A stretch of 64,000 nt of DNA, the filler included, from Basidiobolus ranarum (taxonomy: Eukaryota): the NCBI GenBank assembly GCA_040143965.1. It is 19 parts of 19 records of this genome, joined end to end, with 100 filler letters (N's around TTAATTAATTAA, not from the genome) between each part and the next. Parts side by side here need not be neighbours in the genome. Positions count along the whole stretch, not along the records: positions 23,759 to 27,044 come from JASJQH010002589.1; 18 more parts are not named here. One strand, 5' to 3'. The position numbers and the translations under genes were made by a program. The notes below the pieces were generated by a model. That model worked only from the letters and a program-made list of their open reading frames with translations, made no database searches and was not told the DNA's origin. How positions within the stretch are numbered: the first letter of the stretch is position 1; each line of letters opens with the position of its first letter. This document shows, piece after piece, positions 6,317-40,674 of the stretch.

Positions 6317-6329
6317 TGTATGAATATCA

Positions 6330-7955: not shown

Positions 7956-8559
7956 ATAACATACCGAAATTCTAATTTTTTTGCCATATTTATGACATAT
8001 TTTTCATATCCTATTATCTCTAGTAAACCATTGAGTTGGGATGCTACTTGATGTTTAATATTATACAAATAACCTATTGGCAAATTATCAAATATAACTT
8101 CAGGCAAAGTATACATTTTTCCCCCTGTTTTTTTCCTTTTGCAACAAATAACTATTTAATACAAAAACCCAGTAAAACAATGCAATTGATAATGAATAAT
8201 AAATGCAAATAGAAATTTTATTATACTGAATGTAGGGAATTTTACCATGATAATTGGAATTCTTAGATAAATAACTCACACACATCAGATCAATCAGTAT
8301 TGTGCCAGCTCAATACAAGATTAATATCATGTTCTCCATCTACTCTAAATGCTCATTCCTCATTAATCCAAAAACTACTACTGGCTTTCCTATAACCACC
8401 CTAGAGGCCATATTTGAGGAATACTGTGGCTCATAAACTCCAATACCTACCAGAAAGCAGCTAGTCAATTTGTTTTGTTACTACAAAAACTATTGTCCAA
8501 TCTGATTTCAGTGCACTATTAATGGTAGCAAAAGTGGGAGAAGCTTCCATATCAGGCTT

Positions 8560-8945
8560 CAAGTAAGTGAGAATTATTTGATTACAGTGATGAATGATGT
8601 TGAAGGTGCCCAGGACAAAAGATTTAGAGACACTAATTTCCTTCCATTTCCTAGAGTATTTCCCAATAGAGTTCATGTCAGAAGTAATCTTGACACATTT
8701 CCTGTGAGAATTAACAGGCACAAAAGCAACCAAAAGCTATTATATTCAGGCTAGTACAAAGCCCACTGTGTAAAGTTCCAGGCCTTGACAGATTTGGAAG
8801 GAAACATCATTTGGTTTCATGGGCCACATCTAGGGAGACACCATAGCAACAGGGTTGAGGTTAAGAGGCATGCACCAATTGTAAGATATGAGAAGACTAT
8901 GGATGATTTGGCATATATTGGGGAAGAATGCAGAAGGCTAGGATG
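8560..8945 (+). mobile_element. Degenerate DDE_Tnp_4-type (PIF/Harbinger/ISL2EU, IS5-like) transposase fragment
   Basis: LDTFPVRI...QKLLYSG*YKAHCVKFQALTDLEGNIIWFHGPHLGRHH ... EKTMDDLAYIG. Confidence 0.7.
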
Positions 8946-10096
8946 TGTCATATATTGGGAAAACATGGGCTGTTTAGAGGAACTTTAGAAAAGTGGTGTT
9001 ACAAATAGCTTTGTGAGATAATTATTTATTGTCCAGAAATAAAGTATTTATACACTTTGGTAGAAATACAGAAAACTAACACTGGGCTTGTGTTCAGAAC
9101 ATCTGTGAGAGTAGAATGGGCCATTTTTGGGGCAATTTGGGCAAGTTTGAAATCTTTAATATGGAATTGCTAATTCTCATATTATTCACATATATTTATA
9201 ATATATGTTCCTATTTTCAGTTAACTGATGTTTGACTAAGTAGTGCTACCTACTTATATGTGACATATGAGATAGTTAGGTGTATCAAGATAGGGATAAC
9301 AAATATGATAAGACAATAAACTTCAACACTCCCACTCAACTAAGTATTCATGTATCTTTAACCTAACTTCAATCTTAATACTTCAAATTTTGGTTTAGGT
9401 AATGGTTTGGTAAGGATTTCAGCAATCTTATCCTCAGCTGGACAGTACTCTAGTTGGACATGCTTATTCTCAATAGCTTCCCTAACAAAGTGATGTTGCA
9501 TGTCAATGTGCTTACTTCTAGCACAAAATTTGGGATTTTTAGCTAAAGAAATACCAATTTGATTATTCTTGAAAATTATTGTAGGTGAACTTTGAGAAAT
9601 GCCCAAGTCTTTGAACAGTTTCCTTAGCCACATAGCCCCCTTTGTTGCATGAGATGCTGATATGTACTCTGCTTCATTTGTTGAAAGTACTATGGTGGGT
9701 TGTTTCTTGCTATTCCAAGATATGACTGCTTCACTATAGAGAAAGATATACCCAGTGATAAATCTTCTGTCCTCAATATCATGTCCCCAATTTGTATCAC
9801 TAAACCTGATGCAATCCTTATTCTCATAAGAATATGTGTATCTTAATCCTAGATCAATTGTCTCTTCAAATATCTGAAAATTGGCTTAAATGCTGCATAA
9901 TGCTTAGATCCTAGGTTTTGCACATGTTGTCTGACTACTACCATGGCAAAAGAGAAATCTGGCCAGGTTCCAGGCATAGTATGGATCAAACTACCTATCA
10001 TAGACTGATAAGGGAACTCAGGGCTTTCAAATGACATATTTTGAGCCATATTTGGCCAATTTTCATCATTTTTGATGGGATTTTTGACTAATTTCA
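8946..10096 (-). mobile_element. Ty1/copia 3' end: RT C-terminus, RNase H, PPT and 3' LTR (~8946-9328)
   Basis: FPYQSMIGSL, SWNSKKQPTI.LST.EAEYI, WLRKL, RSKHIDMQHHFVRE, ILTKPL; PPT GTTGAGTGGGAG followed by TGTTGAAG. Confidence 0.92.
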
Positions 10097-12164: not shown

Positions 12165-12823
12165 TAGGACAAAATGACTCGAGTAGTGTGCTGTGTGTAT
12201 GAAGGAACATGTTTAGAATCATTCACATATCTATTCTATCACGTGCTCTGTCCATTTATGATTCAGTATGTATCACTAAACTATAAAATAGGGTCAGTAA
12301 ATCTCAAAACCTGCCACTACGAAAAGTTGTTCAATCAGATCTCGCCAAGATATTTTCTAGCTAGTGATGAAACTGTAATTGTATTTTCGATTCCAATTGA
12401 TCGACTCCGTGTTTAACACAATCAAGAATATCAGTATGAGGAAGATCCAATATAAATCCGCGTGTATTTATGACGCGAGCTGTAGAGCGGATCTCATGAT
12501 GATAGAGTAGTCACACATGCACACACTTGAAATATGGAATAAAGCGTACATCTCTCGACCTGCAGCGGTAGTTTTGCTCCGTCACGTAACTCATATGTAC
12601 CAATCTCCTTGATGTTTCCAAAACATTCATGCTTCTGACCTCTCGCATTGATCATAGATCCAAAGCGTCAAGAGTCTGTAGTTCGGAAACTTGGATAACC
12701 CAATCCCATGATTTCCTCTGACGAATCAGTCTTTGCGTACGAAAATACTTTTTTATCTAGACTAGTATCGTAATCGATTTTCCTCTAACTCTCTTCGAGT
12801 CTTTAGACCCGGACTACGTAGAT

Positions 12824-13490
12824 ATGACCGCAAATACTGAGATGTCCTCGATGAGAACAACTCCACCGTATTACATAAAGCTTAGCGTATTAGCTATGTC
12901 TTGCCTACTGTTGGTAGTGATCTTACTAAATGTGTTATGCTATTCCTCTTCAGTACTATTTCCTTTTTACGTAATCTATTTGGGTTGGTTTATTCTTTTT
13001 GACCGAAAAACATCGTCTATGGGTGGTCGTTCAAATACCTGGCTGCGTGAATCCAAAATTCAAAAGTACTTTGGTGAGCATTTTCCTGCCACTATACATA
13101 AAGAAGTAGACTTGGCAACCGACCAAAACTACATTTTCTCTACACATCCTCACGGTATTTGGGGTTTTGGTGCACAGACTTGTCTCGCTAGTGAAGCTTG
13201 TAATTTCTCTCAGCTTTTCCCTGGCATCGACATGCGTCTGGTTACCTTGAATTTGAACCTTAATTTTCCCTTTCTTCGTGAGTATTTGCTTTGGCGAGGC
13301 TTTGTTAGCGCTAACCCTGATAGTATAAATTATATACTATCTCAAAAAGATCCAAAAAACCCTGAGCGTGGAGTTGGTAAAGCTGTTGGACTTCTTCCTG
13401 GCGGTGCAGCTGAAGCCTTACACGCCGAACCTGGCACTCACCGTATAGTGTTGAAGAAACGTAGAGGCATGTTCCGTCTTGCACTGCTCA
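12824..13490 (+). CDS. DGA1: Diacylglycerol O-acyltransferase 2 (DGAT2/Dga1 family), 3'-truncated
   Basis: HPHG catalytic motif, PFLREYLL, GGAAEAL...PG, LKKRRGMFRLAL; N-terminal TM segment. Confidence 0.9.
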
Positions 13491-13789
13491 NNNNNNNNNN
13501 NNNNNNNNNNNNNNNNNNNNNNNNNNNNNNNNNNTTAATTAATTAANNNNNNNNNNNNNNNNNNNNNNNNNNNNNNNNNNNNNNNNNNNNACCTTTCTCT
13601 GCGCGCCACTCAGGGCCGCTTGTCCCGTCTGGGGCTCATATATTTGAGCTGTGCAGGCATAGGCCCAAATTTGGAACTTATTAATATATTAATCAGGCCT
13701 ATATCTGATCCAATTTGATTTCCTGGTTTGGGATAAAGGTACTACAACTTCCGGCATTGTATTGGGCACTTCAGTAGGCAAAATTCTGG

Positions 13790-14028
13790 TTGAAGGGTCT
13801 GCTGGAATGCTCTTTTCTTCTTTGTTTTAGTTTGAATCTATTTGAATGATTGGATCAGGAGAAAATTGATTTTTGTCATCATCCAAGGTCTTTTTGGGGA
13901 AAAATTTTTTATTTTCATTAAATCAAACATCCCTGGACTTGATTAACTTGGAAATTTCATCATAGAGTCTGTAGGCCTTGGCTTAAGTGCAATAACCCAG
14001 AAATATGCATTTCTTACTTTTTGGATCA
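13790..14028 (-). mobile_element. Copia integrase C-terminal fragment
   Basis: DPKSKKCIFLGYC..AKAYRLYD...KSRDV.FNE. Confidence 0.8.
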
Positions 14029-16880
14029 CCCTAACAGAAATTTGAGGATTGTTGTTGTAGAGAAACCATCACAATTTTAATCCATTTGGGATTGACCATT
14101 CAACTACCTTCATAAAATTATCAAGTTAGATCTGATTTTATTCAATTTTTTCAATTCCAGGAGTGAAATTTCAAGATCTTGCAAAATAGTTGCACATGAT
14201 TGGCTACAATCTCAGAGAACTGTGGGTCAACACATGTGCAAAAAATGTAACTCAAATTTTACACATTTACCACTTGGATGCTAATTTGTTACCTTTGAAA
14301 TCCCTAGTTTCTTTAATATATTCTCCTGAATATTTTTATAGAGTTCTTCATACCCAAGGTTTAGCTCATATCCAACAACAGTTTGTATCAATATCTCTAT
14401 CAAAGCCCACCATTGTATTAAAATTGCTGAATCAACATTATTCCAGCTATCTGGTGGATACCCTACAATATTGTGCCACTCTGAATTAAGTTCCTCCCAG
14501 ATTTCCACATGGTAACACCAGACTGAATGTCAAGTTGAATGTTCTTCTTCTGAAACCACTTTCTGCATATTTGCACTGTGTTTATCCCTTCATACTATTG
14601 AAAACACTCTTCAAGCACTTTGAATATGTATATAAATCATTATGGTGTGACACTACTGAGGGTGCTCTGTGGTGTTTGTGTGGCTTTTTGCTTGCCTGCC
14701 AGTTTGGGGCTAATTTCAACACTTAGAAAAGTACCAGTTGAGGATGAAGAGACATGAGTTTTATTTGCTGGTGTTTTGGCTTGTTGAGAGGTGCCGGGTG
14801 TTGGATAAACTTCTGAATTTAGCACTCTTTTAACTGATGTACCTGGTTCGATGATGAAATTTAGCTTTTTTTCCAGTATGTCTGACTCTGGAAATGCAGA
14901 TATTTGTAATGGGGTGAAGAGTTTGGTGAGTGGGACAATAGAGCCTAAACTCACTGGCTCCTTTGCTTTTCCTTTGGGTTTACAAACTTCCTACTCCTTG
15001 AGTACTTCTTTAGCTGCTTTTCTTTCTTTTCTAAGCTGATAATAGCATACATCTTTGAGATGTTTCATGAATAGGCCTAAACTAGCCCAACTGCCATTTG
15101 CTTTCAAAAACCCAGGAAAAGCCACATGAAATAAGTCAAGAATCTTCAGAGTGATGCCTGGTTTTTGGTTTTTCCACAATTGGCTTAAATCCTGGTGATT
15201 TTGGGCAAGATTCTGCATAGTTTCCAAAATGCTAAACCACTCTTCATCAGAGCAAGTGACAGCAGCTCTGATGTTCAGAGTCTTTTGGTTTGCTGGTTTT
15301 TCTATGAGATTTCTACTTTCATATGCCCAAGCAATTTCAGATTGTTGTGTAGGCTAAATAGTCTCACACATATTCTGCCCTGCTAGATTGTCATGGTGAC
15401 ATTTATATGTATGGTGTGGGATTGATTGAAATCCCTTCTGAGAAAGGAAGGAGGTAGCAGCATGTTGCTGTAGCTCAAGTACAGTATTCTGAAGGTCTTG
15501 TTTCATTGTTGAGTGACTCTCTAACTGTTGACTAGTTGCTTCCAAATGCTACATTAATTTCACTATTAAGGCATTTTTACTTGTCATGCCCTGTATAGCA
15601 ACTTTGTAGTTTTTACTTATGATTGAATACAATCATTATGGTGTTCTGCCTATGATTTCCTTGTTGTAAAAATTGTATCCAAATTATCTGCAGAGGGTTG
15701 TTCAATAGGGGGCACAGTAGCCATTTTGGAAGTTGATGGTCTTGACGGTGTTTTGGTTGAACTTTGCTCAACTATTGATTTACTATGTAATTGAATGATT
15801 AAAATCTCTTCACTTGCACTATTGCTGGAAAGGAACACATCTAGTAAACAAATTAATGCTTCATCGTTACTTGAGTTTGTTTCTGGCATGTTAATACCTT
15901 CCAAAGTGGATAGTGGATTGCTAGACTGCTTATCAATTGAGTCATCTGTTCTTGTTGGTTTTTTCATTTCCTGCCAGCAGACTTTGGCTTGGAGGCCAAT
16001 TTTGATTTAGATTTTGATTGCTTTTTGAATGGCATTTAATTTTTCAGATGGTAAGCTTAGTGTAATGAAATTGCTTAGAAACAGCTTATAATAGACCAAA
16101 ATTGCCATCCATTACCACAAAAATATCTTGTAAATCCCCTGATGACTCATCTGTGACACCATCTCAGAATCAGCTGACAATATTGATGAGCTATACCTAA
16201 AATACCATCCTTACATACAAGGTGTTGTTTTTTCCACAATATCCTTCTTATGCCACAACACAAACATTTAAAGAAGCCCTGCTATCATTGTCACAAATTC
16301 TTGTGCTATGAAAGCAAGAGGCTTAGTAGAAAAAACAATCACAAGCACAATCACCATACAAAGCCACCAGCTGAACAGAGCTTGGTGAGTACCAACAGCA
16401 ATAAGTGAACAAAATCAACTTCTGTTTTGCCCACTGAGTCAACTGACTGTACTTTGCCTCAAAGTTTTGGTAACACTGCTAGAAGTCAAGATACTGTGGA
16501 GTTTCCACAGCTATATGACCAGAATGATGTAGATAGAAATGTAACTTTGATCAAACCAGTGAGTCCAGACAACTTTGAGGACATGCTGCTAGATGTTAAC
16601 CTTGAATATTCCAATACTGATGGTAGTATATTGGAAGTTGAAGAAGAAGATAATGGTTTTGTTATGGACTTTTTGTTATTGGCAAGCATTATTCCACTCA
16701 TAACACTTGCAGTAAAGGAAGCAGCTTTGATTATTGAGGAGTGGAGAGTTCAATCCAATCTTAGCAACCAGGTGTGCATTGGTTTTCTTACACTTTTACT
16801 GTAGTTGATTGGTAACTGTTGCTTGCCACAGACCTGGTACAAGTGAAAAACACTTGTCAATTGTATGACTTATAATCCTT
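14029..16880. mobile_element. CACTA/CMC element, left part: TIR CCCTAACAGAAAT, decayed accessory ORF(s) on minus, probable transposase N-terminus on plus from ~16250
   Basis: Same terminus at 46911; internal blocks repeated at 46911-47324 and, inverted, at 37295-38560; CpG-depleted. Confidence 0.6.
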
Positions 16881-20269: not shown

Positions 20270-20419
20270 NNNNNNNNNNNNNNNNNNNNNNNNNNNNNNN
20301 NNNNNNNNNNNNNTTAATTAATTAANNNNNNNNNNNNNNNNNNNNNNNNNNNNNNNNNNNNNNNNNNNNCAATAAGTGAAAACCATCAATTCCCATCAAA
20401 ATTGATTCAATCAAAACCA

Positions 20420-21095
20420 TTGTTTTAAAGACTTTGGTGAGAACCAAAACCTGCTTATCTCCCAAATTCAAAATGACTAATCATGGTGAACTGACAAACT
20501 AAGTTTAAATAAGATAGATGTGTATGCCAAAACAAAAACTTTAAACCAGTCTATATATATTTTTTATGCACTTAAAAGTTTAAATCAGAAGAATGGGCTC
20601 AATATGTATCAAAATGAAGACAAATCTTGACTTATCCAAAAAATAGCTCAAATAACTCATCAATAAATAGAAATGAACGCCTGGTATTTGCTTATTAACC
20701 TATGGTGAGCTATAGGATGTAAATTGTGGTTGGAACATTGCTGATATTTAAAGTTCTGTGGGAGCTGTATTTCACTGTCTTCAAAATTATGGATTTGATC
20801 AAATGACAGCAATTATGTGGTTTTTGAGATATTTGAAAGGCACTGTGGGTCCATGCTCTAATCTATTTGAGCTAGATCAAGCTTTGATATGATGGGATAT
20901 TCATATACTAATATGGGAAGAGACATTGAAAGCACATGATCTACAACAGGATATTCATTTTTAGCTGCAATGAAGCTATTGCTTGGAGTTCTAAGAAATA
21001 ACCTGATGTAGTACTTTTAACAACAGATGTAAAATACATGACTGCTTGTGAAGCAACAACAGAAGTTATTTGTTAAAGAAAACTTTTGAAAGATT
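20420..21095 (+). mobile_element. Highly degenerate copia RT/RNase H fragment
   Basis: KFKMT..GEL, FLRYLKGT, STTGY, AWSSKK remnants. Confidence 0.75.
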
Positions 21096-23658
21096 TGATA
21101 AAAGTTTTTAGGGGATTTGCAAGAGTTTAGGCAAATATTTGGAGTTGTGATATAGACACTGGGGTTTTATTGAATTGAATAAGTTGTTTTTATAGTTTAC
21201 TCTGATATAGAGCTACTGAACATGCTTAGATCTTAATAAACATGCATGTTGAGCATGGGTCAAAATTTGAGATCATTTATTGAAGTGTGGAGAAAGATGT
21301 GAAAATTGAAAAAAGCGATCTAATTGATATTTGTGTCAATGAGAACCATAAACACACACTTTTGAATGGCAGAATTGAGTGCTAAATAATCAGAACATGA
21401 GCAAAATAACAACTGAATGATGAGTTGTCACTTATCTAATTTAAACATTCCCACTCAACTAATTATTTGTACTTCTCTTAAACCTAACTTATATCTGTAT
21501 AGATCAAATTATGCTTTAGCTAAAGGTTTGGCTAATGTGTCAGCTATCATTACTTCAGTAGGGCAATAGAGAAGTTCAAATATATCTCTCTCTTTCACTT
21601 CTCTGACAAAATGATGCCTAATATCTATATGTTTTGTTCTAGTATGAAATGTAGGGTTATTCAGCTTTTGATATACAACTTTGATTATCTTCAAATACAT
21701 AAATAGCACATTTATGCATGTAGCCTAAGTCTGCAAATAACTTCCTTAACCACATAGCTTCTTGTGTGATAGCAGAGGCAGCCATATACTGTGCTTCTGT
21801 AGTGGAACATGCTACAGTTGATTGCTTCTTACTATTACAAGTTATGGCTCCATTACCATAGAGAAAAGTGTACCCAGTTGTTGATCTTGATCATCAAGGT
21901 TTCTTCCCCTCTCAGCATTGCTATTGCCTTCAGAATTTTGTGCATCAGGAGTGCCTGAGTATTCCAGAGCTAGATTTACAGTTTCAATCAAATTCCTGAA
22001 TATTTGTTTTACTGCATTTTTGAGCTCAGATCCTGGATTTGTGGAGATATTGGCTGAAAGTTCCCACTGCTCTAACAATGCCTGGATGTGTTCCTACCAT
22101 TGTATACATTAAACTATCTACTATGGAATGATAAGGGTACTACTCCTGACTTTGATTTAAGTCATTTTGGGCCAAATTGAAAGAAATATTGATTAATTTC
22201 ACATTTGGATCCATGAATGTTGACACAGGCTGGCTATACTCCATGTTGAGGTGTTTCAGAATGTCTAAGATGTTTGTAGACTGACTGAACATGATTTTAT
22301 GATTGGGTTTATCTCGCTTTATAAGGATTCCAAGAAAATAAGTCTCCCTAATCAGTCATCTGAAATTGGTTTAATCAGCAGATTTTTATGTATTTAAGTT
22401 TGTCTAGATCATTTGTGGCTATGATCTAGTCATCCACATATAGTGCAAAGATAAGGGCCCCATTTCTGAGTGTTTTGGCTTAAATACTGTGGCCTGCTGT
22501 TCATTTTTGGAATTCCAGAGATTCCAAATAGGTATCCACCTTGTTGTTTGATGCCCTGGGTGCCTGCTTGAATTCATATAGCAATTTTTGCAGTTTACAG
22601 ACCGTATAGGTGTGTTCTGGGTCAACTAGTCCATCTCATTTTTCCATTTAAATCTCTTCTTCTAGACTTCCAATCAGAAAGGCTGATTTTAGATCCATGT
22701 AATGTAAATCAAGGTTATGCTTGGCTGAGAGTGCCAGGATTGATCTATTGGGGCTAACTTAGCTACTGGAGCCACAGTTTACCAACATCAACTCTTACAG
22801 TCTGGGAGTTACCTTTTGTTACAAATCTTTCTTTACACCTTTTAGTTTTTCAATTAGCACGGTGTTTGACTTTGAAAACCCATTTGCAACCCATTGGCTT
22901 TCCTCCCAATGGTACAGGACTTAAAACCCCTTGCTTTATTATCCTGAAGTGAAGAAAACTCATCAAATATTTTTTCTCTCATAATTTTGATAACAAACAC
23001 TCCAGAGCTTGATCTAGAGTTTGTGGCTTGCACCAATTGTGGCTTATGCATGGTTATCATCATTGGAAGTATTCCACCAGTTCCCTGACTTATTTGTCCT
23101 TGTGGATGATCTTGTAAGGTCTGACTCATCCTCTGATGACATTTGGGCTAGTAATTTGGTTGAATTAGGCTCAGGTATGGCTGGATCTTTGTCAGACACT
23201 TCCTGAATAGTGCTGATTGTGTTTTCTGAATCAAGAATAGTGAGTCAAGGTGAATATTTACTTTTTCAGTAAAGAAAATTAAACACAACTTGTGTGTGCA
23301 ACCAAAGCTCCTGATATGATCCACACTTAGTTTTGATCCATACAGGGCTTCAAATGGAGTAGAATTTTGTAGCAATCTTGTTAGGCATCTGTTTTTCATA
23401 TAGACAGCAGTGAACACAGATTCAGCCCAATATTGGTAATCTAACTTTTGATCATGTAACATTGATCTTGCCATCTACAGTATAGTCTTATTAGTATGTT
23501 CTGAAACTCCATTTTTCTGTGGAGTATAAGAAACAGTAGTTTATTGCTTAATTCCATGTTTACAGCAAAAACTAGCAAAGTCTTTAGAGCAGCATTCTCC
23601 ACCATTATAACTCCCTAGTACCCATTTCTTTGTGATGATTTTTCTGTGTCATTGCTTT
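21096..23658 (-). mobile_element. Degenerate copia element (integrase, RT, RNase H), PPT and 3' LTR family B (21096-21446)
   Basis: MARSMLHDQKL..YWAE.V.TAVY..NRC, TPFEALYG, FHTRTKHIDIRHHFVRE, ADTLAKPL; PPT GTTGAGTGGGAA. Confidence 0.92.
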
Positions 23659-23758
23659 NNNNNNNNNNNNNNNNNNNNNNNNNNNNNNNNNNNNNNNNNN
23701 NNTTAATTAATTAANNNNNNNNNNNNNNNNNNNNNNNNNNNNNNNNNNNNNNNNNNNN

Positions 23759-25230
23759 TTCCGACGCCTCTATTGGGCTCATGATACTTTACATTTCCAG
23801 CCGATCAGTTACCAAGTATTAATATAGCATCATTCCCAAAATTCTCTCGAAGATTCTTGGCAAGCCGTTTGTCTGATTGTAGTTGGTTAATGAAACTTGA
23901 GTGCTTCATTTTTCTAAGAGGTAACAAACTGCTGGCACGCCGGTCTTTTCCTGCAGGGCAATCTTCATTTGAGTAATACACTCTCTTGGCTTTTTCTTGA
24001 AGATACTCGGTAAACTTGTCTTTGTTGGCAGTTGAAGATTTAAAATACGATAGGGAAAGCTCAGCTGCGATGACTTGGTCTGTCTTTAAGTTCTCTGAGC
24101 TTCCTGAATTTTCTGCCTTTTGTTTCAATTGCGTTTTGGTTGCTTGCATATCAGTAAACCATTTTGTTTTCAGTGGTACTTCCTTCGTGCATACAGTACA
24201 GCAAATCGCGACGTCCAGGATCAATTAGCACACACTTGCCAACAACTCTTCTCTTCCCAACTTCTACACATACTGCAACTCGTCTTCTAAAGCAAGATAC
24301 TTTGACTTAGGCACCACCCTTCTTCTTCGTATCATGGTTTTGCTTTAACACCGACACACCTACACCATCTGTGTACATCAACTTCATTAACTTTCTTGTT
24401 CCTTGTGGTTTCATTGCCTTTGATGTGAGGTCAATAACGGCTCCCCAGACTATTTCTTTATCCAAGTAGCTGGTGATAGAATTCTTTAAAATTGGAGTAT
24501 TTAAAATATACATATCGATTGTCATGTAGGATGATATGAAGCACCTTCTTAATGGAAAGCAGTTGAATGACTTGTTTTAGAGAGCTTCGCACATGCTTAA
24601 CAGTCTGGGGTACACCTTTATATGCTTGAGAGAGTTGTTTTTGTAGTCGTAATAAATTATGTCTTTTGCAAATCGATAATCAGTCGAATACGAGCCAAAA
24701 AGATTATGGATCATATTCAAATCGTTTGAGGAGAGAAATTCTTTAGGTATATCTTCAATATTTCTTGACGAAATAGCCAGTTTGACCTTCTTTATCTGCT
24801 CTGTTACTGTCTTTATAGCTGCCACAATCTCTTTCTTCCTTCCCCATTCCTCTTCATTTCGCTTTTCAGCGCTTTGATTCTTTCGTTCTTGTTCAAAAGC
24901 AAGTTAAGAAACATTTTGATAAGCAGTAACAGTCTCTGCCACTTTATAAGAAGCTATCTGATGAGCATACTTCATGTTGACTGGTTCGTAAGAACAGCAC
25001 TGAGAGTACTTATCCCGATAGTTGAGTATTAGATCTTTTTAAGTTCTTGATTCTGTCGAAGCTTTCTGTTTATCTGGTTTGTAGTTGCTGAGGAGTGACA
25101 AAAAGACTTCTTTAAAAAAGCCAACATTAATGAAATCCTCCAAAGGAAACGCAGGATTATCTTCCAGCTCATGAGTAAAGATGTACTTCAGAAAGGAAGA
25201 GGTATGTGACACAAGGGTGTGACATGAGTA
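23759..25230 (-). pseudogene. Fanzor1 (eukaryotic TnpB-like RuvC nuclease), degenerate, C-terminus lost at contig end
   Basis: FLKYIF..EL, FF.EVFLSL, FNCFPLR..FI.SYMTID, TDGVGVSVLKQN, RuvC-I GKCVLIDPGRRDLLYCMHE, LRKMK.SSFIN..Q.DKRLAKNLRE.FG.DAILILGN(W>*)SAGNVKYHEP.RGVG. Confidence 0.85.
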
Positions 25231-26721
25231 GTGGAACGTATTATGGCTTCCACCTAATACTAGCGATTGAGCTTCTGACTGCATTAATCTTTAGAGGTGG
25301 CTAAAAAAGCGAATTGACTTATGTCGTTAGTTTTAACGCATCACTGATATATTGTATTTAACACATCACTGGTGTCAATATTTTTAACAGCAATAAGGTT
25401 TAACAAATTTCATCCGTGGAACTTACATTGTTCGATCTTTTGAATGTGTTTATAATATACTTAGGTCTGTACGGTATAGAAGACCAAATATCATACAAAA
25501 TAAATATGTTTCTCATGTTTGAGAGGAACCCCTCCATTCACCAGTGCAGCAGTTGAAAAAGTCTACCATTCATCTATTTGACTATTATATCCCAACTCTG
25601 AAAAGCTAATCATCAAACCCCACCAAAGATGGTTGGCCCAGATTGAATTAGTAAGTGTAAGTTGGGTGGTATAAAATAGAATTCTTCAAGTGCTTCTTGT
25701 GCTCCATTTTCTACCGAGGTATGTATGGGCTGGGTTATTGTCCAGCGTGAAGAAATACCTCCTAAACACAAACTTCAATTTCTAGGTAAATCAATGAGAT
25801 AAATGGGAATTGTTCCAGTAAACCAAGCATATTGAGTATGATAGAGAGAAATAAATGTTAAGGATGTCACCAAATTATAATTGCTTATCACTCCCTCCCC
25901 CCACAACCAGTATTAATAAACGACCACTCGCCACCAGGGTAGAGCCCCGATTCGACTGATAATATGCAGTTCAACGCCATTGGAATCTTGACAGAAGAAT
26001 CTGGTGATGCGACCTATACTTTCTAAACTCTTACCACCGCAATGCAATGAGAAGCCTATTACATTAAAATTCAGCCTTGCTATGCTAACACCAGTTTAGA
26101 TATATAGTAAACATATCATAAGCCTACTCTCGGCCTTGTTCTGATCGCACATAGGCATATTCTTGATAACAATTACCCGATTTAAGTTAATTGAATATAT
26201 TTTTATCAGTGACACACCAGCGGAACCCTCGGATTATCCTTGCAACAGGAATTCCTAGGAGATCAAGCATACATGGAATAAATGCAAATAGAGTAAAAAT
26301 AGGGAATACAAAAATATTTAATAGGATGGAGATAAATCGTTCACCATAAAAAGACGCGAAAAAAAACTGACCATGGCAACAATAAGCAGAAGTATATAGG
26401 TGATAATCACCAGCGAAAGTGATAAAAGTGGGCAAAAATAATAAATACTAAGAAAATCAATGTACAGTACGGATAGATATATGATGTAGAATCGGAGTGT
26501 ATGTGATAATGAAAATCCAGTTTTCAAGCCAAGAACATGACTGATAAGGAGTTATGCGGGCTATTACCACCTTTCATCTAAGAGTAGTCTTTCATATGGG
26601 AAATGAAAGAAAAATTATAAACCATGTAAGGGTTCGGGTAAGTGTATAGAATAGAACACATTTCATCTAACGAATAGTGTTGCTTTGAGGCGTCAGTAAA
26701 GCAGAGAACTCAAGTAAACTC

Positions 26722-27044
26722 TCAAGCATTGTGAGCTGCTTCATTCCCCGTATGCATGGTACTTAACGTTAATTTCGCCTGAAGCTCTTGAAGTTCACGC
26801 TGGAGATGATCATTTTCGTCCTCAAGTTTCTGTACTTTTTCTTCTAGTTCGGAGACATACTGTTTCTTCTTTTTGCGGCATTCCTTGGCAGCTTCTCTAT
26901 TGCGAACCAATCTACGCTGTCTCCTCTCTTCAATGGTAAGTCCTTTAAGCGAGCCTGGAGTGCTGCAACGCTCACGATTACCACTGTCTGGTGGAGAGGA
27001 GGGGGAGCTAGTTAAGGGAGATATACTTCCAGTATCAGCATTTG
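26722..27044 (-). CDS. bZIP transcription factor (CREB/ATF-like), 5'-truncated
   Basis: ERRQRRLVRNREAAKECRKKKKQYVSELEEKVQKLEDENDHLQREL: basic region and Leu zipper. Confidence 0.92.
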
Positions 27045-33913: not shown

Positions 33914-34334
33914 CCACACAACTCATCAAACCAATAATCCAATTTCTGCTGGAGTTCCTACCGCTGGCGTTGGTTCTACTGGAGTTGCTACCAGTAATGA
34001 TCCTTATCACAATGTGTCTGGTGAAAAGCCTTCGACCATGTCAGCCAAGAAGGATCAAGCTGTAGGTGCAATGAAGCAGAGTGTCGGAAGTACCTTCAAC
34101 AAGCCATCCCTTGAAGTTCAAGGTGCAGGCCAGCGACAAGAAGGCCATCTACAAGAGCATGTGGCTAAGAATCAACCAGGAGCTGTCACAGGAACTGCTA
34201 ATGCTGCTACTGGTGCGGTGAAACAAAATGTAGGCTATGCAACTGGCAACCCATCCATGGAGGTCAATGGGGCTTCACAACGAGTACATGGTGATGCACA
34301 ACAGAATGCAGCTTATAACAACAGAGTATTATAA
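33914..34334 (+). CDS. CsbD/LEA-like hydrophilin, copy 1 (3' part)
   Basis: Paralog of the C-terminus of 35295-36182 (KKDQAVGAMKQ.VG, GAVKQNVGYATGN). Confidence 0.8.
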
Positions 34335-35294
34335 ATATTTACTTATCCAGACAACTTACTGTCAGTTAAATTCTTCTCATGTACACCAATTGCACTTTTT
34401 TGTTAAATAGTAAAATAAATATTGCTTCAAAATAACTCATTTGACTACGTTTGCAGTGCATGCATTATAATCCTCTGTTTACAACGGCAAATTTAACAAC
34501 GTAGTTAAATCTACAGCAACACTGATGGCGATTTGCTATAGATATCACTAGGATAATTTTGCGTTGGGTTTGTTTTAATCTTCGTATTTGTTGAGATATC
34601 TAACTTCTGTCCAATTTGAATGCATAAAAAATACACCACTCATTATTAGTATTTCGATTAATAGGCCGGTTTAATATTTATAACTTAAACGGAACAATGT
34701 AAATAAGAGATTTATATATCTCGTTGGTTGTAGCTTTAACGATGGGTTCGAGTATAAGAAACCACTGTGATACCTTGTAGTTCTTGGAGTGATAGTAGTG
34801 TAAATATTAGTAACTTAGTAACTTTAACGATCGGATTCAGTATAAGAATCCACAGTAATACCTGGTGATTCTCAAGGAGTGGTAGCAGTGTAAGTATTGG
34901 TAACTTATTGACAGCAGCTTGAAATGTGAGAAAGAAACTAACGTTAGTCCAAGTACTTTGCGTTCTTCACAGATCAACATATATTGATGGTTCTACCAGT
35001 CGCGAGATTAGCTTCGGTGTTAATCAAGCGGTTGCTATGTGTATGCGTAACGGTACTCATTTAGGTAAAAATGAAATTATGCTAACTAGCATTAGACTTA
35101 AGGCTAAGCTATATTTAGATGCGATGAGATAATTACGGTGACGAAATCAGAACGTAGTCCGTATGACATGATCTGCGAAATATTCATTGCTAATATAAAT
35201 TCATTCTGAATTGAGCGAGTATAAAAAGGAAGTAAGTGATCACCATTATAATTAAAATCAACTGCCTCTAAAATCATATCAATCTAATATCACC

Positions 35295-36182
35295 ATGTCT
35301 AAAATCTCTGCTGCCGCCAAGAACGCCGCTGGTAACATCCAAGAAGGAGTTGGTAAGATGTTCAACAGTGAAAGTATGATCGCCAAGGGCGAACAAAAGC
35401 AAGTTGAAGCTGAACAACAAAAGTTGGCTGCCGAACAAAAGAGTTCAGGTAATGCTCACTCAGCCAAGGGTACAGCCAAACAAAACATTGGTGAGGCTAC
35501 CAACAACCCACACCTAGCTGCTGAGGGTGGAGCCGAACGCTATCATGGAAATGCTCAGCACAATGCTGGAAAGTTAAATGATCCAAGTGACAGAGTAGGT
35601 GCTGGTATTACCGGCACCCATCATACCGGTACCGGAGTAACTGGTACTCATCATACAGGCGCTGGAGTTACTGGTACTGGCTTAGCTGGTACCAATGCTA
35701 GCAACAGTCATATTCCTGGAACCACGAGCACTGCAGGAACTGGTTACACCGGAGCTGATCCACTTCATGGCCATTCAACCAGCACAGGTCACCACACAAC
35801 TCATCAAACCAATAATCCAATTTCCACTGGAGTTCCTACCAGTAATGATCCTTATCACAATGTGTCTGGTGAAAAGCCTTCGACAATGTCTGCCAAGAAG
35901 GATCAAGCCGTAGGAGCTATGAAACAGAATGTTGGAAGTGCTTTCAACAACCCGTCTGTTGAAGTCCAAGGTGCAGGTCAACGTCAAGAAGGCCATCTCC
36001 AAGAACATGTGGCTAAAAATCAACCGGGAGCTGTCGTAGGAACTACTAATGCTGCAACTGGTGCGGTGAAACAAAATGTCGGTTATGCTACTGGTAACCC
36101 ATCTATGGAGCTTAATGGAGCTTCACAAAGAGTACATGGTGATGCACAACAGAATGTAGCTCATAACAGCCGAGTATTGTAA
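35295..36182 (+). CDS. CsbD/LEA-like hydrophilin, 295 aa, four CsbD-like units and a G/T/H-rich linker (copy 2)
   Basis: Intronless ORF; repeated G..KQ.VG...N......G...EG units; TATAAAA at ~35220. Confidence 0.85.
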   Translation: MSKISAAAKNAAGNIQEGVGKMFNSESMIAKGEQKQVEAEQQKLAAEQKSSGNAHSAKGTAKQNIGEATNNPHLAAEGGAERYHGNAQHNAGKLNDPSDRVGAGITGTHHTGTGVTGTHHTGAGVTGTGLAGTNASNSHIPGTTSTAGTGYTGADPLHGHSTSTGHHTTHQTNNPISTGVPTSNDPYHNVSGEKPSTMSAKKDQAVGAMKQNVGSAFNNPSVEVQGAGQRQEGHLQEHVAKNQPGAVVGTTNAATGAVKQNVGYATGNPSMELNGASQRVHGDAQQNVAHNSRVL

Positions 36183-37294: not shown

Positions 37295-38560
37295 ACACCC
37301 ACTATATAAGATTGGTATTTTAGGTATATCCCATCAATATCATCAGCTGATTCTGAGATGGTGTCACTCATGAGTCATTAAGGGATTTACAAGATATCTC
37401 AGATAATGGATGGCAATATTGGTTTATTACAAGTTGCTCTTAAGCAAATTCATTATACTAAGTGTGCCATCTGAAAATCTCAATGCCATTCAACAAGCAT
37501 TCAAAATCTAAATCAAAATTGGCTTTCAAGCAACAGCCTGCAGGCAGGCAGGGAAAACAACCATTATGAACAGAGGTCCTAGCTGATGAGCAGTCTAGTG
37601 ATCCAATTTCCTCTTTGGAAGGCATCAACATGCCAGGAACTAACTCAGGTAACAATGAAGCATTAATCAATTTAGCAGATGTGTTCCTTTCTAGCAATAG
37701 TGCAAGTGAAAATGTTACAATCCCCCAATTACATAGTAAATTGTTAGTCAAGCAAAGTTCAACATAAATGCTGTCAAGACCAACAACTTCAAGAATGCCC
37801 ACTTTGCCAAATATTGAACACCCCTCCATATACAATTTGACTAGCAACATTACAATCAGGAAATCTTAGGCAAAACACCACAATGACTTGTATTTGATCA
37901 TAAGTAGAAACTACAAAGTGACTATACAGGCCATGACAAGCAATCATGCATCAATATTGCAATTAAAGCAGCATTCTAAAGCAACTTGGCTTTTACAGGA
38001 AGTGTTATGTATGTACTAATGTCTTCTGATAGCAGCCCAGACACTGCAAAGCATACTGAGTAGTGCCATACTACAAGGATGTATATAAATAGTAAAGGTG
38101 CTTGAAGAGTAGCTTCAAAAATATGAAGGGAAAATACAATGCATGTATGTAAACAGTTGCCTCAGAAAAAAGAACATTCAGCTTGACATTTAGTCTGGTG
38201 TTGACCATGGAGATATTAGGGACAAACTTAATACAGAGTGCTACAATATTGCAGGGTATCCACCAGATAGCTGGACAATTGGTAATTCAGCAATATTAAT
38301 ACAGTGGTGGGCTTTGATGGAGATATTGATACAAACTTAGGTTGAATATGAGCTAAACCTTGGGTATGAAGCACTTTGTAAAAATATTAAGGAGAATGTA
38401 TCAAAGAAATTAGGGATTTTGAAGGTGCAAATTAGCACTCAAGTGGTTAATATGTAAAAATTTGAGATACAATTTTTGAGCATGTGTTGAACCATAGTTC
38501 TTTGAGATTTTAGCCAATCATGTGCAACTTTTTTGCAAGATCTTGAAGTTTCACTCATGA
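37295..38560. mobile_element. CACTA/CMC internal fragments, inverted relative to 14160-14640 and 15500-16220
   Basis: Block similarity, e.g. GGGTATCCACCAGATAGCTGGA and GAGATGGTGTCAC. Confidence 0.7.
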
Positions 38561-39379
38561 CTATAGTATCTACTTCAGGTCAGATAAGACAAACCAAGTT
38601 TTATTAGCCTTATATGTAGATGACCTTATTATAGCAACCAATGACTTGAAGACTTTGGAGAAAACCAGATCCAGCTTATCTGCCAAATTCAAAATGACTG
38701 ATCTTGGTGAACTGACATATTATCTTGGCATCCTAAGTAAGATTGATAGAACTACCAAAACAATCACTTTAAACAAGTCCAACTATGTTTTAGATATACT
38801 AAAGCAGTTTAGGATGGAAGGATGTAATCCAGTATCTACCCCAATGGAGACAAATCTTAACTTGACCCAAAATGACTCAAATTGGATATTTTTGGTTTCA
38901 AATGAAAGCCAAAATTTTCTTAGCAATATATGGTTGTTAGTTTGATATATCATGGTTGCAATATGGCCAGATAATGCATATTATGTGGGAGTTATGTGCC
39001 AATATCTTCAAAATTATGGATCCAATCAAATGATAGCAGTTAAGTGGATTTTTGGATATTTGAAAGGTACTATGGATTTATGCTTAAAATACACATATTC
39101 TGGGTCAAACTTTGATCTGATGGCATATTCAGATGATTATTGGGGAAGAGATATTGATGACAGAAGATTTACAACAGGATGCTTATTTTTTTGGTGTAAT
39201 GGAGCTATCTCTGTGAATTCAAAGAAAAACCTACCATAGCACTTACAACAACAGAAGCCAAATACATGGCTGCCTGTGAAGCAACAAAACAAGTAGTATG
39301 GTTAAGAAAACTCTTAATAGATTTTGGTTTTTCTCAAAATTCCCCAACTACAATATTTCAAGACAATCAAAGTTGTATT
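38560..39379 (+). mobile_element. Copia RT/RNase H fragment
   Basis: LALYVDDLII, KFKMTDLGEL.YYLGI, YSD.YWG.DIDDRR.TTG. Confidence 0.92.
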
Positions 39380-40385
39380 TGTTGAAATTAGCATTGCCTA
39401 AGCACCTATATAGTCATATATAGCTAGCTACAGATTTTTCATATATTTCATTAAGATATCATCCATTATTCTCAATTGGAGTTTACTTAGAATGTTTTTA
39501 GCTACTTAGAAGTTTTCAGACATTAAGATTTTTCAAACTTGTGCTAGAAGCCCCAAACTTTGCACACATGTTCCTGGGGCCTTCCTTAACACATTCTATA
39601 CATCAGTTAGATTACATTTTGACAAAACTAGAAATGTCAACCTTTGACTCAATAAATCAATAAGTGAAAACCATTGATTCCTCTAATTCTCCAAACAACT
39701 TCCAACAGGTCCCCAAATACTTTGACCGGTTACTAGCCCCAAGCTTGCACTCTCTGTAATGTCTACTTCTCAAATTTATGGAACTTTTCCCTCTTCTGAA
39801 AAATTGGATAGAACCAATTATCAAGTTTAGAAAATTAAAATGTAAATGCTGCTGCATGAAAAAGGACTTTGGGACACTATTGTAGGAGAACAAAACAATG
39901 CAAAATTATCTGAAATCAAAGTTTTACTTTGGGTTAAAGAAGAACAAACTGTCTTTAACACAATTTGTCTTAATGTTAAAGGCAAGTTGCTAATAGAATG
40001 TTCAAGAGCTACTACTGCCAAGAAGGTATCAAAAGCCTTGGAAGACATCTACCAGCTAAGTTCTACTACCAACAATATGTTTCTAAGAAGACATTTCTTC
40101 TACTCAAGATGAAGCCAGGAGAAGACATTAATTCAGTAATTAATAGAGTCACTATTTGGTAGATGAAATGGAATGCATTGGAGTACCTACCACTGATCAC
40201 AATATCATAAATTTAGTCCTGAATAGCCTGTCATATCAGTTTCACAGTCTAATAATGGCTCTGGGGTTAAGAACTCAAAATTTGACCTTGAATTATGTAT
40301 TTGGCAGACTTCTGGATGAAGATTTACACAAATTGGGATCCAACCATAAGAATGAAGAAAAAGCTTTAACAGGCATGGGAAACTG
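39380..40385 (+). mobile_element. Copia 5' end nested in the RNase H above: LTR A (39380-39727), PBS GGTTACTAGCCC, degenerate gag
   Basis: TGTTGAAATTAGC...; KLDRTNYQV*KIKM*MLLHEKGLWD; LVLNSL..F.SLI.AL; RLLDE. Confidence 0.88.
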
Positions 40386-40674
40386 TTGGAGGATCTTGAC
40401 AAAATGGGGGTAGACTTTGAGTACTAGAAGCAACTTATGATAGTGTGTTTTAGTTACTTTATTCTTAAGAGTATATGGTGACTTTTTTAGTTGAAAAGAG
40501 AACAATTTTTTGAGATATTCAGGAGTTTGTGTAATAAGATATAACGGATAAGTGGGGATAATAAGACATACTTGNNNNNNNNNNNNNNNNNNNNNNNNNN
40601 NNNNNNNNNNNNNNNNNNTTAATTAATTAANNNNNNNNNNNNNNNNNNNNNNNNNNNNNNNNNNNNNNNNNNNN

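What the first reader, a model, noticed from the sequence alone, without database searches (positions are those of the whole stretch)
23759..25230. Fanzor1-like (eukaryotic TnpB/OMEGA) RNA-guided nuclease gene, relatively young
Seen: four ORF-track fragments on the minus strand join through frameshifts into one intronless ~490-codon protein. It carries FNCFPLR..FI.SYMTID, TDGVGVS, RuvC-I 'CVLIDPGRRDLLYCMHE' (24240-24184), a Lys/Arg-rich helix (LRKMK.SSFIN..Q.DKRL) and 'ILGN(W)SAGNVKYHEP.RGVG'. Knowledge: this motif order matches fungal Fanzor1 proteins, which are transposon-borne, omegaRNA-guided DNA endonucleases. Inference: unlike neighbouring TEs it keeps many CpGs (e.g. GGACGTCGCG), so it is younger or escaped methylation, and intact copies with an omegaRNA may exist elsewhere in this genome. 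RuvC-II/III, the Zn finger and the omegaRNA would lie beyond the contig end at 23759.
Basis: partly seen in the sequence, partly recalled or inferred. Interest (0 to 1): 0.82.

Follow-up and report, generated by a model that had tools for sequence, protein, structure and literature searches.

The report
Dead Fanzor1 relic, probably horizontally acquired
This is a broken, cut-off remnant of a known transposon-borne RNA-guided nuclease gene (Fanzor1) in a Basidiobolus-like fungus, ordinary in itself but so close to copies from the unrelated mould Rhizopus that it probably jumped between fungal lineages.

Summary
The motifs are real and the family assignment is right. Every minus-strand piece between 25300 and 23760 matches the solved Parasitella parasitica Fanzor1 in the same order (best E 1.4e-19). 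The copy is 77% identical (306/396) to a Rhizopus arrhizus protein.

The start Met is missing, and there are 7 premature stops, 6 frameshifts and several deletions. The 3' end is cut off at a contig end. That removes about 146 residues carrying RuvC-II, the Zn finger and RuvC-III, plus any omegaRNA.

The window is 19 unrelated contigs of about 3.3 kb joined by linkers. The "neighbouring TEs" therefore lie on other contigs. CpG retention is real: o/e 0.62, against 0.01-0.09 in 7 contigs.

"Young" is only half supported. The copy is clearly dead, yet it keeps 66 of 69 family-invariant residues.

The unexpected part is the host. A bZIP gene on the same contig is Basidiobolus-like (82%, versus 60% or less in Mucoromycota). 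Yet the Fanzor nests inside the Rhizopus clade, and the AU test rejects the vertical alternative (p 2e-8). This points to horizontal transposon transfer.

Verdict: a known family, a dead copy, modest interest.

The parts
23759..25306 (-). Fanzor1 pseudogene relic, about 515 codons. It corresponds to residues 1 to about 431 of a 577-626 aa FRI-less Rhizopus-type Fanzor1 and is cut at its 3' end by the contig end.
   Evidence: Collinear PDB hits to PpFz1. Frameshift-aware alignment to P0008/P0002. 306/396 identity to P0002.
25301..25306 (-). Lost start: TTT TAG where the homologs P0008 and P0018 begin Met-Glu (MEPPLKI).
   Evidence: Sequence, translation, compared with the P0008/P0018 N-termini.
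25241..25243 (-). Premature TAA (homologs have Q or R).
25216..25222 (-). Frameshift zone 1 (1 extra nt).
   Evidence: position differs by a few nt between P0008 and P0018 as guide
25039..25041 (-). Premature TAA (homologs have Y).
24918..24939 (-). Frameshift zone 2, with a deletion of about 10 codons (homolog 'NGVKVQFGNKVR' is missing).
24835..24845 (-). Frameshift zone 3 (2 extra nt).
24577..24579 (-). Premature TAA (homologs have Q, H or Y).
24310..24576 (-). Best-conserved block (FNCFPLRR...YMTID...TDGVGVSVLKQ). It aligns to PpFz1 chain 770-858.
   Evidence: E 1.4e-19; SpuFz1 E 0.002; 34 relatives
24307..24309 (-). Frameshift zone 4 (1 extra nt).
24264..24266 (-). Premature TAG (homologs have E).
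24244..24245 (-). Frameshift zone 5 (2 extra nt), with about 4 codons missing.
24184..24234 (-). RuvC-I motif CVLIDPGRRDLLYCMHE. The catalytic-position Asp codon GAT is at 24220-24222.
   Evidence: aligned to PpFz1 'VLMDPGRRDLLYCM' and SpuFz1 'VVIDPNKRDILYC'; sequence
24151..24153 (-). Premature TGA (homologs have R).
24090..24096 (-). Frameshift zone 6 (1 extra nt).
23805..23807 (-). Premature TGA in place of the W of the conserved 'LGNWSAGNVK'.
23659..23758 (.). Scaffold joint (44 N + ttaattaattaa + 44 N). This is the contig end that removes the C-terminal ~146 codons and the 3' flank where an omegaRNA would lie.
25307..26721 (.). 5' flank / intergenic DNA. No convincing terminal inverted repeat, RNA family or tRNA. 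CpG o/e for 25307-27044 is 0.67.
26722..27044 (-). 3' part of a host bZIP transcription-factor gene, running off the other contig end. Its nearest relatives are Basidiobolus proteins.
   Evidence: bZIP_1 E 9.1e-16; B. ranarum 82%, B. meristosporus 74% and 73%, best Mucoromycota 60% or less

Best explanation
The feature is the inactivated, 3'-truncated remnant of a Fanzor1 gene. Fanzor1 is the eukaryotic TnpB-type, omegaRNA-guided RuvC DNA endonuclease carried by DNA transposons.

This copy belongs to the short subclade (about 580-630 aa) found in Rhizopus and Gilbertella. That subclade lacks the roughly 100-aa cyclophilin-binding FRI insertion of Parasitella PpFz1.

An intact relative would bind an omegaRNA encoded at the 3' end of the element. 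It would cut DNA next to a short TAM using the D (IDPG), E (DEFRTS) and D (WNRD) triad. That mechanism is taken from work on PpFz1 and SpuFz1, not shown here.

This copy cannot do any of that. It has no start codon, 7 premature stops, 6 frameshifts and several deletions. Everything from RuvC-II onward is absent from the 3.3-kb contig.

The relic lies 1.4 kb downstream of a Basidiobolus-type bZIP gene, in DNA with the CpG content of genic contigs. It was not hit by the CpG-depleting process that affected 7 of the 19 contigs in this window, some of them carrying LTR retroelements.

Its position inside the Rhizopus Fanzor1 clade implies that the element entered the Basidiobolus lineage by horizontal transposon transfer from a Mucorales donor and then decayed. 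This last step is inference.
For: Family:
- 6 of 6 ORF pieces hit PpFz1 (9cf0) collinearly, and 2 also hit SpuFz1 (8gkh).
- 34 relatives at E<=1e-3.
- 233 50%-identity clusters at E<=1e-3, 94 at <=1e-10.
- The RuvC-I Asp sits in 'IDPG' at 24220-22.

Pseudogene status:
- Lesions were mapped against P0008 and P0002.

Truncation:
- Linker at 23659-23758.
- P0002 aligns only up to residue 431 of 577.

FRI absent:
- The alignment with P0350 (849 aa Parasitella protein) shows the window, P0002 and P0019 gapped across P0350 residues ~577-678.
- D-to-DEFxTS spacing falls into two classes, 150-174 and 259-268.
- The FRI domain is described in PMC11423790 (passages read).

Homologs are complete:
- P0002, P0019 and P0350 carry DEF(R/K)TS, CxxC...C and WNRD.

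Host:
- bZIP on the same contig.

CpG:
- o/e 0.62 (relic) and 0.67 (flank), against 0.61-0.81 in 11 contigs, 0.28 in one and 0.01-0.09 in 7 contigs.

Nesting:
- Careful ML tree of 36 rows with Coemansia as outgroup: window+B. ranarum P0001 95/91; with the R. arrhizus/delemar clade 98/94; inside a clade with Gilbertella, Helicostylum and Mucor flavus 100/99.
- AU test p 2.2e-8 against all Mucorales-side rows forming one clade.
Against: - The local Pfam copy gives no hit for any piece. It also gives none for the Parasitella protein P0350 or for four of five other homologs scanned; P0018 alone gave a weak Cas12f1-like_TNB hit (E 0.0043, below cut-off). So this is uninformative.
- No read-level check of the lesions or of contig integrity was possible. 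Assembly errors or a chimeric contig are therefore not formally excluded.
- No transposon ends, TSD or omegaRNA could be identified.
- The host assignment rests on one 106-aa bZIP fragment.
- The AU-test group was defined after the first tree had been seen.
- Basidiobolus is a 'rogue' taxon whose placement varies between studies (PMC10079182, passages read). It lies outside Mucorales in all of them.
Confidence: 0.9

Rival explanations
1. The Fanzor-like DNA is not resident in the Basidiobolus-like genome. On this view it is Mucorales contaminant DNA, or the 3.3-kb contig is a chimera of a contaminant fragment and a host bZIP fragment.
For: - The contig is a tiny unplaced piece of a fragmented assembly.
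- All named relatives other than one B. ranarum protein are Mucorales or Coemansia.
- No Basidiobolus protein of 358 aa or more was found (0 of 64 hits).
- No reads could be examined.
Against: - The copy is only 74-78% identical to the nearest Rhizopus protein, so it is not DNA of any sampled Mucorales.
- An independent B. ranarum assembly has a sister copy (P0001, 150/189 identical; it shares 'KPDKQKASTESR').
- GC and CpG o/e of the relic (0.386; 0.62) match its flank (0.379; 0.67).
Confidence: 0.1
2. The similarity to Rhizopus reflects vertical descent. An ancient Fanzor1 lineage present in the common ancestor of Basidiobolus and Mucorales survived in both, and the other Mucorales clades are older paralogs.
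For: - Fanzor1 families are multi-lineage within genomes. Bao & Jurka list 4 families in R. oryzae and 10 in Mucor circinelloides (PMC3627910, Table 1 passage).
- Some phylogenomic studies place Basidiobolus next to Mucoromycota (PMC10079182).
Against: - Window-Rhizopus identity is 77%, while Rhizopus-Gilbertella copies (same order) are 58% and window-Coemansia copies are far more distant.
- The path length from the window to P0002 is 0.31, even though the window copy is a decaying pseudogene.
- The host bZIP drops from 82% (Basidiobolus) to 60% or less (Mucoromycota).
- The AU test rejects a Mucorales-only clade.
Confidence: 0.07
3. The gene is intact in the organism, and the stops and frameshifts are sequencing or assembly errors in a low-quality contig.
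For: It is a short unplaced contig of a draft assembly. The residue-level conservation is still high: 66 of 69 invariant columns are kept.
Against: - Seven of the lesions are base substitutions creating stops.
- One frameshift comes with a deletion of about 10 codons, and there are further in-frame deletions of 3-5 codons.
- By my reading, the frameshift sites are not in long homopolymers.
- The start codon is replaced by TTT TAG.
Confidence: 0.03

Closest known systems
Rhizopus arrhizus/delemar Fanzor1-type 'Transposase' proteins (e.g. P0002, 577 aa; P0010, 544 aa)
   Same: - 306/396 (77%) identity across REC, WED and RuvC-I up to the 'GNWSAGNVKYHEPxRGVG' segment.
- Same short architecture without FRI.
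- Same motif order.
   Different: The window copy is dead (7 stops, 6 frameshifts, deletions). It lacks the last ~146 residues. It sits in a Basidiobolus-like genome rather than a Mucorales one.
Parasitella parasitica Fanzor1 (PpFz1; PDB 9cf0-9cf3; Xu et al. 2024, PMC11423790)
   Same: - Collinear match of all pieces.
- Same 'DPGRRDLLYCM' RuvC-I motif and the same LLPFRKMK...LGNWSA segment.
- PpFz1 is a demonstrated omegaRNA-guided DNA endonuclease with a 5'-ATN TAM and a 75-nt omegaRNA (passages read).
   Different: - Only 42% identical (209/494).
- The window copy lacks PpFz1's ~130-aa N-terminal extension and the ~100-aa FRI cyclophilin-binding insertion.
- It is not functional.
Basidiobolus ranarum hypothetical protein P0001 (204 aa)
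   Same: - Sister to the window copy in the tree (95/91).
- 150/189 identical.
- Same host genus as inferred for the window contig.
   Different: P0001 is a gene model that skips ~150 residues of the family alignment, so it is probably another degraded copy. Whether it is orthologous to the window locus could not be tested.
Spizellomyces punctatus Fanzor1 (SpuFz1; PDB 8gkh)
   Same: It is recognisably related in the WED block (E 0.002) and in RuvC-I (E 0.19), with the catalytic Asp aligned.
   Different: It is much more distant and comes from a chytrid. It has a different TAM (the paper's text, gives CATA/TTAA for GtFz1/SpuFz1 'respectively', but a later passage speaks of GtFz1's TTAA TAM) and a 90-nt omegaRNA.

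Membership tests
Fanzor1 (eukaryotic TnpB-like RuvC nuclease) | Significant collinear sequence similarity to experimentally characterised Fanzor1 proteins. | tested here: met
   6 of 6 pieces hit PpFz1 (E from 2.3e-3 to 1.4e-19) in the same order. 2 of 6 also hit SpuFz1.
Fanzor1 (eukaryotic TnpB-like RuvC nuclease) | RuvC-I catalytic Asp in a D-P-G context. | tested here: met
   'VLIDPGRRD', with Asp codon GAT at 24220-24222, aligned to the Asp of PpFz1 and SpuFz1. The DPG signature is named in PMC10711439 (figure-legend passage).
Fanzor1 (eukaryotic TnpB-like RuvC nuclease) | RuvC-II Glu, [TS][TS]-x-x-C4 Zn finger and RuvC-III 'RD' (Bao & Jurka motif D-X(125,275)-[TS]-[TS]-X-X-C4-X(5,50)-RD; PMC3627910 abstract). 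| not testable with these tools
   This part lies beyond the contig end at 23759. It is present in the close homologs P0002, P0019 and P0350: DEF(R/K)TS at D+167 to +169 in the short forms, CxxC...C, and WNRD.
Fanzor1 (eukaryotic TnpB-like RuvC nuclease) | Open reading frame able to encode the nuclease. | tested here: not met
   No start codon, 7 stops, 6 frameshifts. It is a pseudogene of the family, not a working member.
Fanzor1 (eukaryotic TnpB-like RuvC nuclease) | Associated omegaRNA at the 3' end of the element. | not testable with these tools
   The 3' flank is absent from the contig. Rfam finds nothing relevant on the contig.
Fanzor1 (eukaryotic TnpB-like RuvC nuclease) | Residence in a DNA transposon with TIRs and TSDs (e.g. 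MuDr-like ROr-4 in Rhizopus, 9-bp TSD; PMC3627910 passage). | tested here: inconclusive
   Only one end could be present. No convincing inverted repeat was found (best pairs 14-21 nt at 76-93%). There is no second copy in the window.
FRI-bearing Fanzor1 subgroup (PpFz1 type) | An insertion of about 100 aa in RuvC that binds cyclophilin (PMC11423790). | tested here: not met
   The window copy, P0002 and P0019 are gapped across P0350 residues ~577-678. The spacing classes are 150-174 and 259-268.
Horizontally transferred transposon (HTT) | Element phylogeny incongruent with host phylogeny, and element similarity exceeding that of host genes. | tested here: met
   - Nested in the Rhizopus clade.
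- AU p 2.2e-8.
- 77% identity to Rhizopus, against 60% or less for the linked bZIP to any Mucoromycota.
Horizontally transferred transposon (HTT) | Physical integration in the recipient genome confirmed, and synonymous divergence below that of host orthologs. | not testable with these tools

The most novel reading that the evidence does not exclude
A Fanzor1-bearing DNA transposon of the Rhizopus lineage (Mucorales, Mucoromycota) crossed into the Basidiobolus lineage, which all cited phylogenomic studies place outside Mucorales. It persisted long enough to leave copies in at least two Basidiobolus genomes, then died. That would be a documented cross-phylum horizontal transfer of an RNA-guided nuclease element between fungi. 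I found no paper holding both 'Fanzor' and 'Basidiobolus' (0 papers). The only paper holding 'Fanzor' and 'Mucorales' is the PpFz1 structure paper, which merely speculates about transposon-mediated transfer.
Probability: 0.65. Interest if true: 0.45.

Novelty: new member of a known kind. Interest (0 to 1): 0.33.

Why it matters
In itself it matters little. This is a dead, truncated copy of a well-characterised family that has hundreds of relatives in Mucorales, so it offers no new nuclease, omegaRNA or TAM.

Two side results have some value:
1. The copy documents Fanzor1 in Basidiobolus with a Rhizopus-like sequence. That is concrete, testable evidence that Fanzor-carrying transposons move between distant fungal lineages. 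It bears on how these nucleases spread in eukaryotes, and on the 'mixed ancestry' that makes Basidiobolus hard to place.
2. The window shows a sharp two-class CpG pattern. Seven contigs, three of them with retroelement domain hits, are stripped of CpG, while genic DNA and this DNA-transposon relic are not. This is a handle on repeat-directed cytosine methylation or mutation in this fungus.

Tried and rejected
- Pfam on the six ORF pieces gave nothing relevant. Pfam also gives nothing for the full-length Parasitella protein or for four of five other homologs scanned; only P0018 showed a weak Cas12f1-like_TNB hit, E 0.0043, below cut-off. The local Pfam copy lacks the model (PF26935) that the protein database lists for this family. 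I do not know that model's name.
- Searching the window's own genome: none is held.
- Earlier findings of this scan: nothing by place or by sequence.
- Other copies or the missing C-terminus elsewhere in the window: none. tblastn with 34 homologs hits only 23.7-25.3 kb, and blastn of the contig against the window gives a self-hit only.
- Terminal inverted repeats or other repeats on the contig: only short, weak pairs.
- Rfam and tRNA scans of the contig: one sub-threshold chance hit and no tRNA.
- A regex for the 'FRKMK' helix spacing mis-hit an earlier 'FRKLR' site. I used the D-to-DEFxTS spacing instead.
- The tail of the P0018-guided alignment is unreliable, because the P0018 gene model deviates there. 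I did not count the lesions it suggested below 23951.
- A search for long Basidiobolus Fanzor proteins found none among 64 hits. That search is word-based and limited to annotated proteins, so this is weak evidence of absence.
- Structure prediction and complex prediction were not run, because the sequence matches to solved Fanzor1 structures already settle the family.
Full report
**What the window is.** The 64-kb window is not one continuous locus. It holds 36 N runs of 44 nt, arranged in pairs around the 12-mer ttaattaattaa. These split it into 19 pieces of 3,300 down to 3,271 nt, in falling order of length, with the last piece cut by the window end. So it is a chain of small unplaced contigs from a draft assembly. 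The finding lies on the piece 23759-27044 (3,286 nt). Everything outside that piece is physically unrelated to it. No whole genome is held for this window.

**Checking the observation.**
- Each of the six pieces, searched separately against all PDB sequences, has the same best hit: chain 9cf0_P, the MBP fusion of Parasitella parasitica Fanzor1.
- The hits are in collinear order. Chain 541-590 (E 7.2e-6), 605-645 (2.3e-3), 663-766 (6.5e-8), 770-858 (1.4e-19), 885-915 (1.9e-7), and 938-972 plus 1092-1132 (3.7e-6).
- Two pieces also hit Spizellomyces punctatus Fanzor1 (8gkh).
- The RuvC-I motif VLIDPGRRDLLYCM aligns residue for residue with VLMDPGRRDLLYCM of PpFz1. Its Asp codon is GAT at 24220-24222.

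The nature of the breaks is different. A frameshift-aware alignment to the closest long homologs (P0008, P0002) traces the true path.
- The relic starts at about 25306, where the homologs begin MEPPLKI. The window reads TTT TAG CCA CCT there, so there is no Met and codon 2 is a stop.
- Further stops follow at 25241-43 (TAA), 25039-41 (TAA), 24577-79 (TAA), 24264-66 (TAG), 24151-53 (TGA, in place of Arg) and 23805-07 (TGA, in place of the Trp of LGNWSAG).
- Frameshifts lie near 25216-22, 24918-39 (with about ten codons deleted), 24835-45, 24309, 24244 and 24090-96.
- There are also in-frame deletions of 3-5 codons.

That makes 13 disabling lesions, plus the lost start, in about 515 codons. P0002 (577 aa) aligns only up to residue 431, where the contig ends. 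About 146 residues are therefore missing, along with the 3' flank.

**What it is.** A search of 5.8 billion proteins with the 89-aa core found 34 relatives at E<=1e-3. All named ones were Mucorales (Rhizopus arrhizus, R. delemar, R. microsporus, Gilbertella, Cokeromyces, Helicostylum) except one Basidiobolus ranarum protein. An exhaustive HMMER search of 1.84 billion cluster representatives found 233 clusters at E<=1e-3, 94 at <=1e-10 and 10 at <=1e-30. The named ones I looked up were again Mucorales, plus distant Coemansia proteins.

The close full-length homologs carry the rest of the nuclease after the point where the window stops: LLDEFRTSS (RuvC-II Glu), CPSC...HGLLRC..C (Zn finger) and WNRD (RuvC-III Asp). 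This matches the Fanzor/TnpB signature given by Bao and Jurka (PMC3627910, abstract passage).

The local Pfam copy is blind to this family. It gives nothing for the Parasitella protein, and only one weak below-cut-off hit (P0018) among the five other homologs scanned.

**Subtype.** Xu et al. 2024 (PMC11423790; passages read) show three things about PpFz1:
- It cleaves DNA in vitro with a 5'-ATN TAM and a 75-nt omegaRNA.
- It carries a ~100-aa 'FRI' insertion in RuvC that binds cyclophilin.
- The authors found that insertion only in Parasitella and Rhizopus.

I aligned the window copy with P0350 (an 849-aa Parasitella protein whose YPQPE loop sits one residue off the paper's P614/P616). The window, P0002 and P0019 are all gapped across P0350 residues ~577-678. 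Across the homolog set, the distance from the RuvC-I Asp to DEFxTS falls into two classes, 150-174 and 259-268 residues. The relic therefore belongs to the short, FRI-less subclade of about 580-630 aa. It also lacks PpFz1's N-terminal extension of about 130 residues.

**Surroundings.**
- Upstream of the relic lie 1.4 kb without ORFs of note, convincing inverted repeats, Rfam families or tRNAs.
- At 26722-27044, on the same strand and running off the other contig end, lies the 3' part of a bZIP transcription-factor gene (bZIP_1 E 9.1e-16).
- That bZIP's nearest relatives are Basidiobolus ranarum (82%) and B. meristosporus (74% and 73%). The best Mucoromycota or Glomeromycota hits are 60% or less, and mostly cover only the basic-zipper core.
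- The contig therefore comes from a Basidiobolus-like fungus, not a Mucorales species.

**The incongruence.** The relic is much closer to Rhizopus than its host should allow.
- It is 77% identical to the R. arrhizus protein P0002 (306/396).
- It is 79% identical to the B. ranarum protein P0001 (150/189), and P0001 is 76% identical to P0002.
- Rhizopus and Gilbertella copies, from two genera of one order, are only 58% identical. The relic is 42% identical to the Parasitella protein.

I built a careful IQ-TREE analysis (36 rows, 546 columns, LG+C20 PMSF) rooted on four Coemansia proteins.
- Window+P0001 form a pair (95/91).
- That pair is sister to the R. arrhizus/delemar clade (98/94).
- Next comes an unnamed Logan protein (96/86), then R. 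microsporus (88/91).
- All of these sit inside a clade with Gilbertella, Helicostylum and Mucor flavus (100/99).

Forcing the 30 rows that are neither Basidiobolus nor Coemansia into one clade costs 81.7 log-likelihood units, with p-AU 2.2e-8. One caveat is that I defined this group after seeing the first tree, although it follows from taxonomy.

Phylogenomic work places Basidiobolus either at the base of Zoopagomycota or next to Mucoromycota, but never inside Mucorales (PMC10079182, passages read). The simplest reading is horizontal transfer of a Fanzor1-bearing transposon from a Rhizopus-lineage donor into Basidiobolus, followed by decay.

Two alternatives remain. Contamination or a chimeric contig is made unlikely by three points: the 22-26% divergence from every sampled Mucorales protein, the sister copy in an independent B. 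ranarum assembly, and the matching base composition of relic and flank. It could not be excluded with reads. Ancient vertical paralogy is hard to square with the identities and branch lengths.

I found no paper holding both 'Fanzor' and 'Basidiobolus' (0 papers). The only paper holding 'Fanzor' and 'Mucorales' is the PpFz1 structure paper. No Basidiobolus protein of 358 aa or more appeared among the 64 relatives of P0001, so there is no sign of an intact annotated copy in that genus.

**CpG and age.** The relic has 36 CpG (o/e 0.62) and the rest of its contig 0.67. Across the 19 contigs the values fall into two classes:
- Eleven contigs have 0.61-0.81.
- One has 0.28.
- Seven have 0.01-0.09, with raised TpG+CpA (1.31-1.44).

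Of the seven depleted contigs, three gave Pfam retroelement hits among the ORFs I tested: RVT_2 and gag_pre-integrase on 60913-64000, RVT_2 on 37295-40574, and weak Chromo/RT_RNaseH on 44050-47324. The tested ORFs of the other four gave none. CpG-normal contigs carry ordinary genes such as DAGAT, MIP and CsbD.

So the relic shares the CpG state of genic DNA. That fits low copy number or a genic location that escapes the process hitting those depleted contigs. It also fits a recent arrival.

On age the evidence points both ways. Thirteen disabling lesions show the copy has been dead for some time. Yet it differs at only 3 of 69 columns that are invariant in the Mucorales-side rows of its clade (4.3%), which is within the 0-8% range of most members in that set. 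I conclude that it is dead but not ancient. 'Relatively young' can be neither affirmed nor rejected without DNA of other copies.

**How it works.** An intact member of this subclade would act as shown for PpFz1 and SpuFz1. The protein binds an omegaRNA transcribed from the 3' end of the element, recognises a short TAM through its REC and WED domains, forms an R-loop and cuts with the D-E-D RuvC site (PMC11423790). That mechanism is taken from the literature, not tested here. Its role in transposon maintenance is inferred by analogy with TnpB, which is my own knowledge and rests on no call. The window copy can do none of this.

**Verdict.** It is a new member of a known kind, a pseudogene of an already characterised family. 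The probable Mucorales-to-Basidiobolus transfer is the only point of wider interest.

Noticed in passing
whole window (linkers at 3301-3400, 6700-6799... 60813-60912): The window is a chain of 19 contigs of about 3.3 kb in falling order of length. They are joined by 44 N + ttaattaattaa + 44 N. Adjacency between the pieces has no biological meaning.
   Followed up: yes
contigs 3401-6699, 6800-10096, 13591-16880, 20370-23658, 37295-40574, 44050-47324, 60913-64000: These contigs show extreme CpG depletion (o/e 0.01-0.09) with raised TpG+CpA (1.31-1.44). Eleven other contigs have 0.61-0.81 and one has 0.28. Three of the seven depleted contigs gave Pfam LTR-retroelement hits. This suggests a CpG-directed methylation or mutation process aimed at repeats in this fungus.
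   Followed up: partly
26722-27044 (-): C-terminal part of a bZIP transcription-factor gene on the Fanzor contig. Its nearest relatives are Basidiobolus ranarum (82%) and B. meristosporus (74% and 73%).
   Followed up: yes
35256-36182 (+) and 33914-34334 (+): Two separate contigs encode similar proteins with repeated CsbD-like domains. The first has 4 stretches, Pfam E 5e-34. The second shares long near-identical stretches by eye. They are probably paralogs or alleles.
   Followed up: partly
49526-50698 (-): A MIP/aquaporin gene (Pfam E 1.5e-17). Its N-terminal region, running into the contig end, is a tandem repeat of the type VTVLEENEAEVPAA.
   Followed up: no
12761-13489 (+): Fragment of a diacylglycerol acyltransferase (DAGAT) gene, running into the contig end (Pfam E 1.7e-46).
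   Followed up: no
7401-8003 (-), 45680-46168 (-), 46440-46958 (-): ORFs of 160-200 aa on CpG-depleted contigs with no Pfam hit at E<=0.001. They may be unclassified transposable-element proteins.
   Followed up: no
protein P0001 (Basidiobolus ranarum, 204 aa): This annotated 'hypothetical protein' is a Fanzor1 fragment. Its gene model skips about 150 residues of the family alignment, so it is probably a mis-modelled pseudogene. It is the only named non-Mucorales, non-Coemansia relative found.
   Followed up: partly
protein database annotation: The protein database tags this family with Pfam PF26935.1. The local Pfam-A copy returns no hit for members such as P0002 and P0350. The lack of Pfam hits here is a gap in the library, not evidence about the proteins.
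   Followed up: partly
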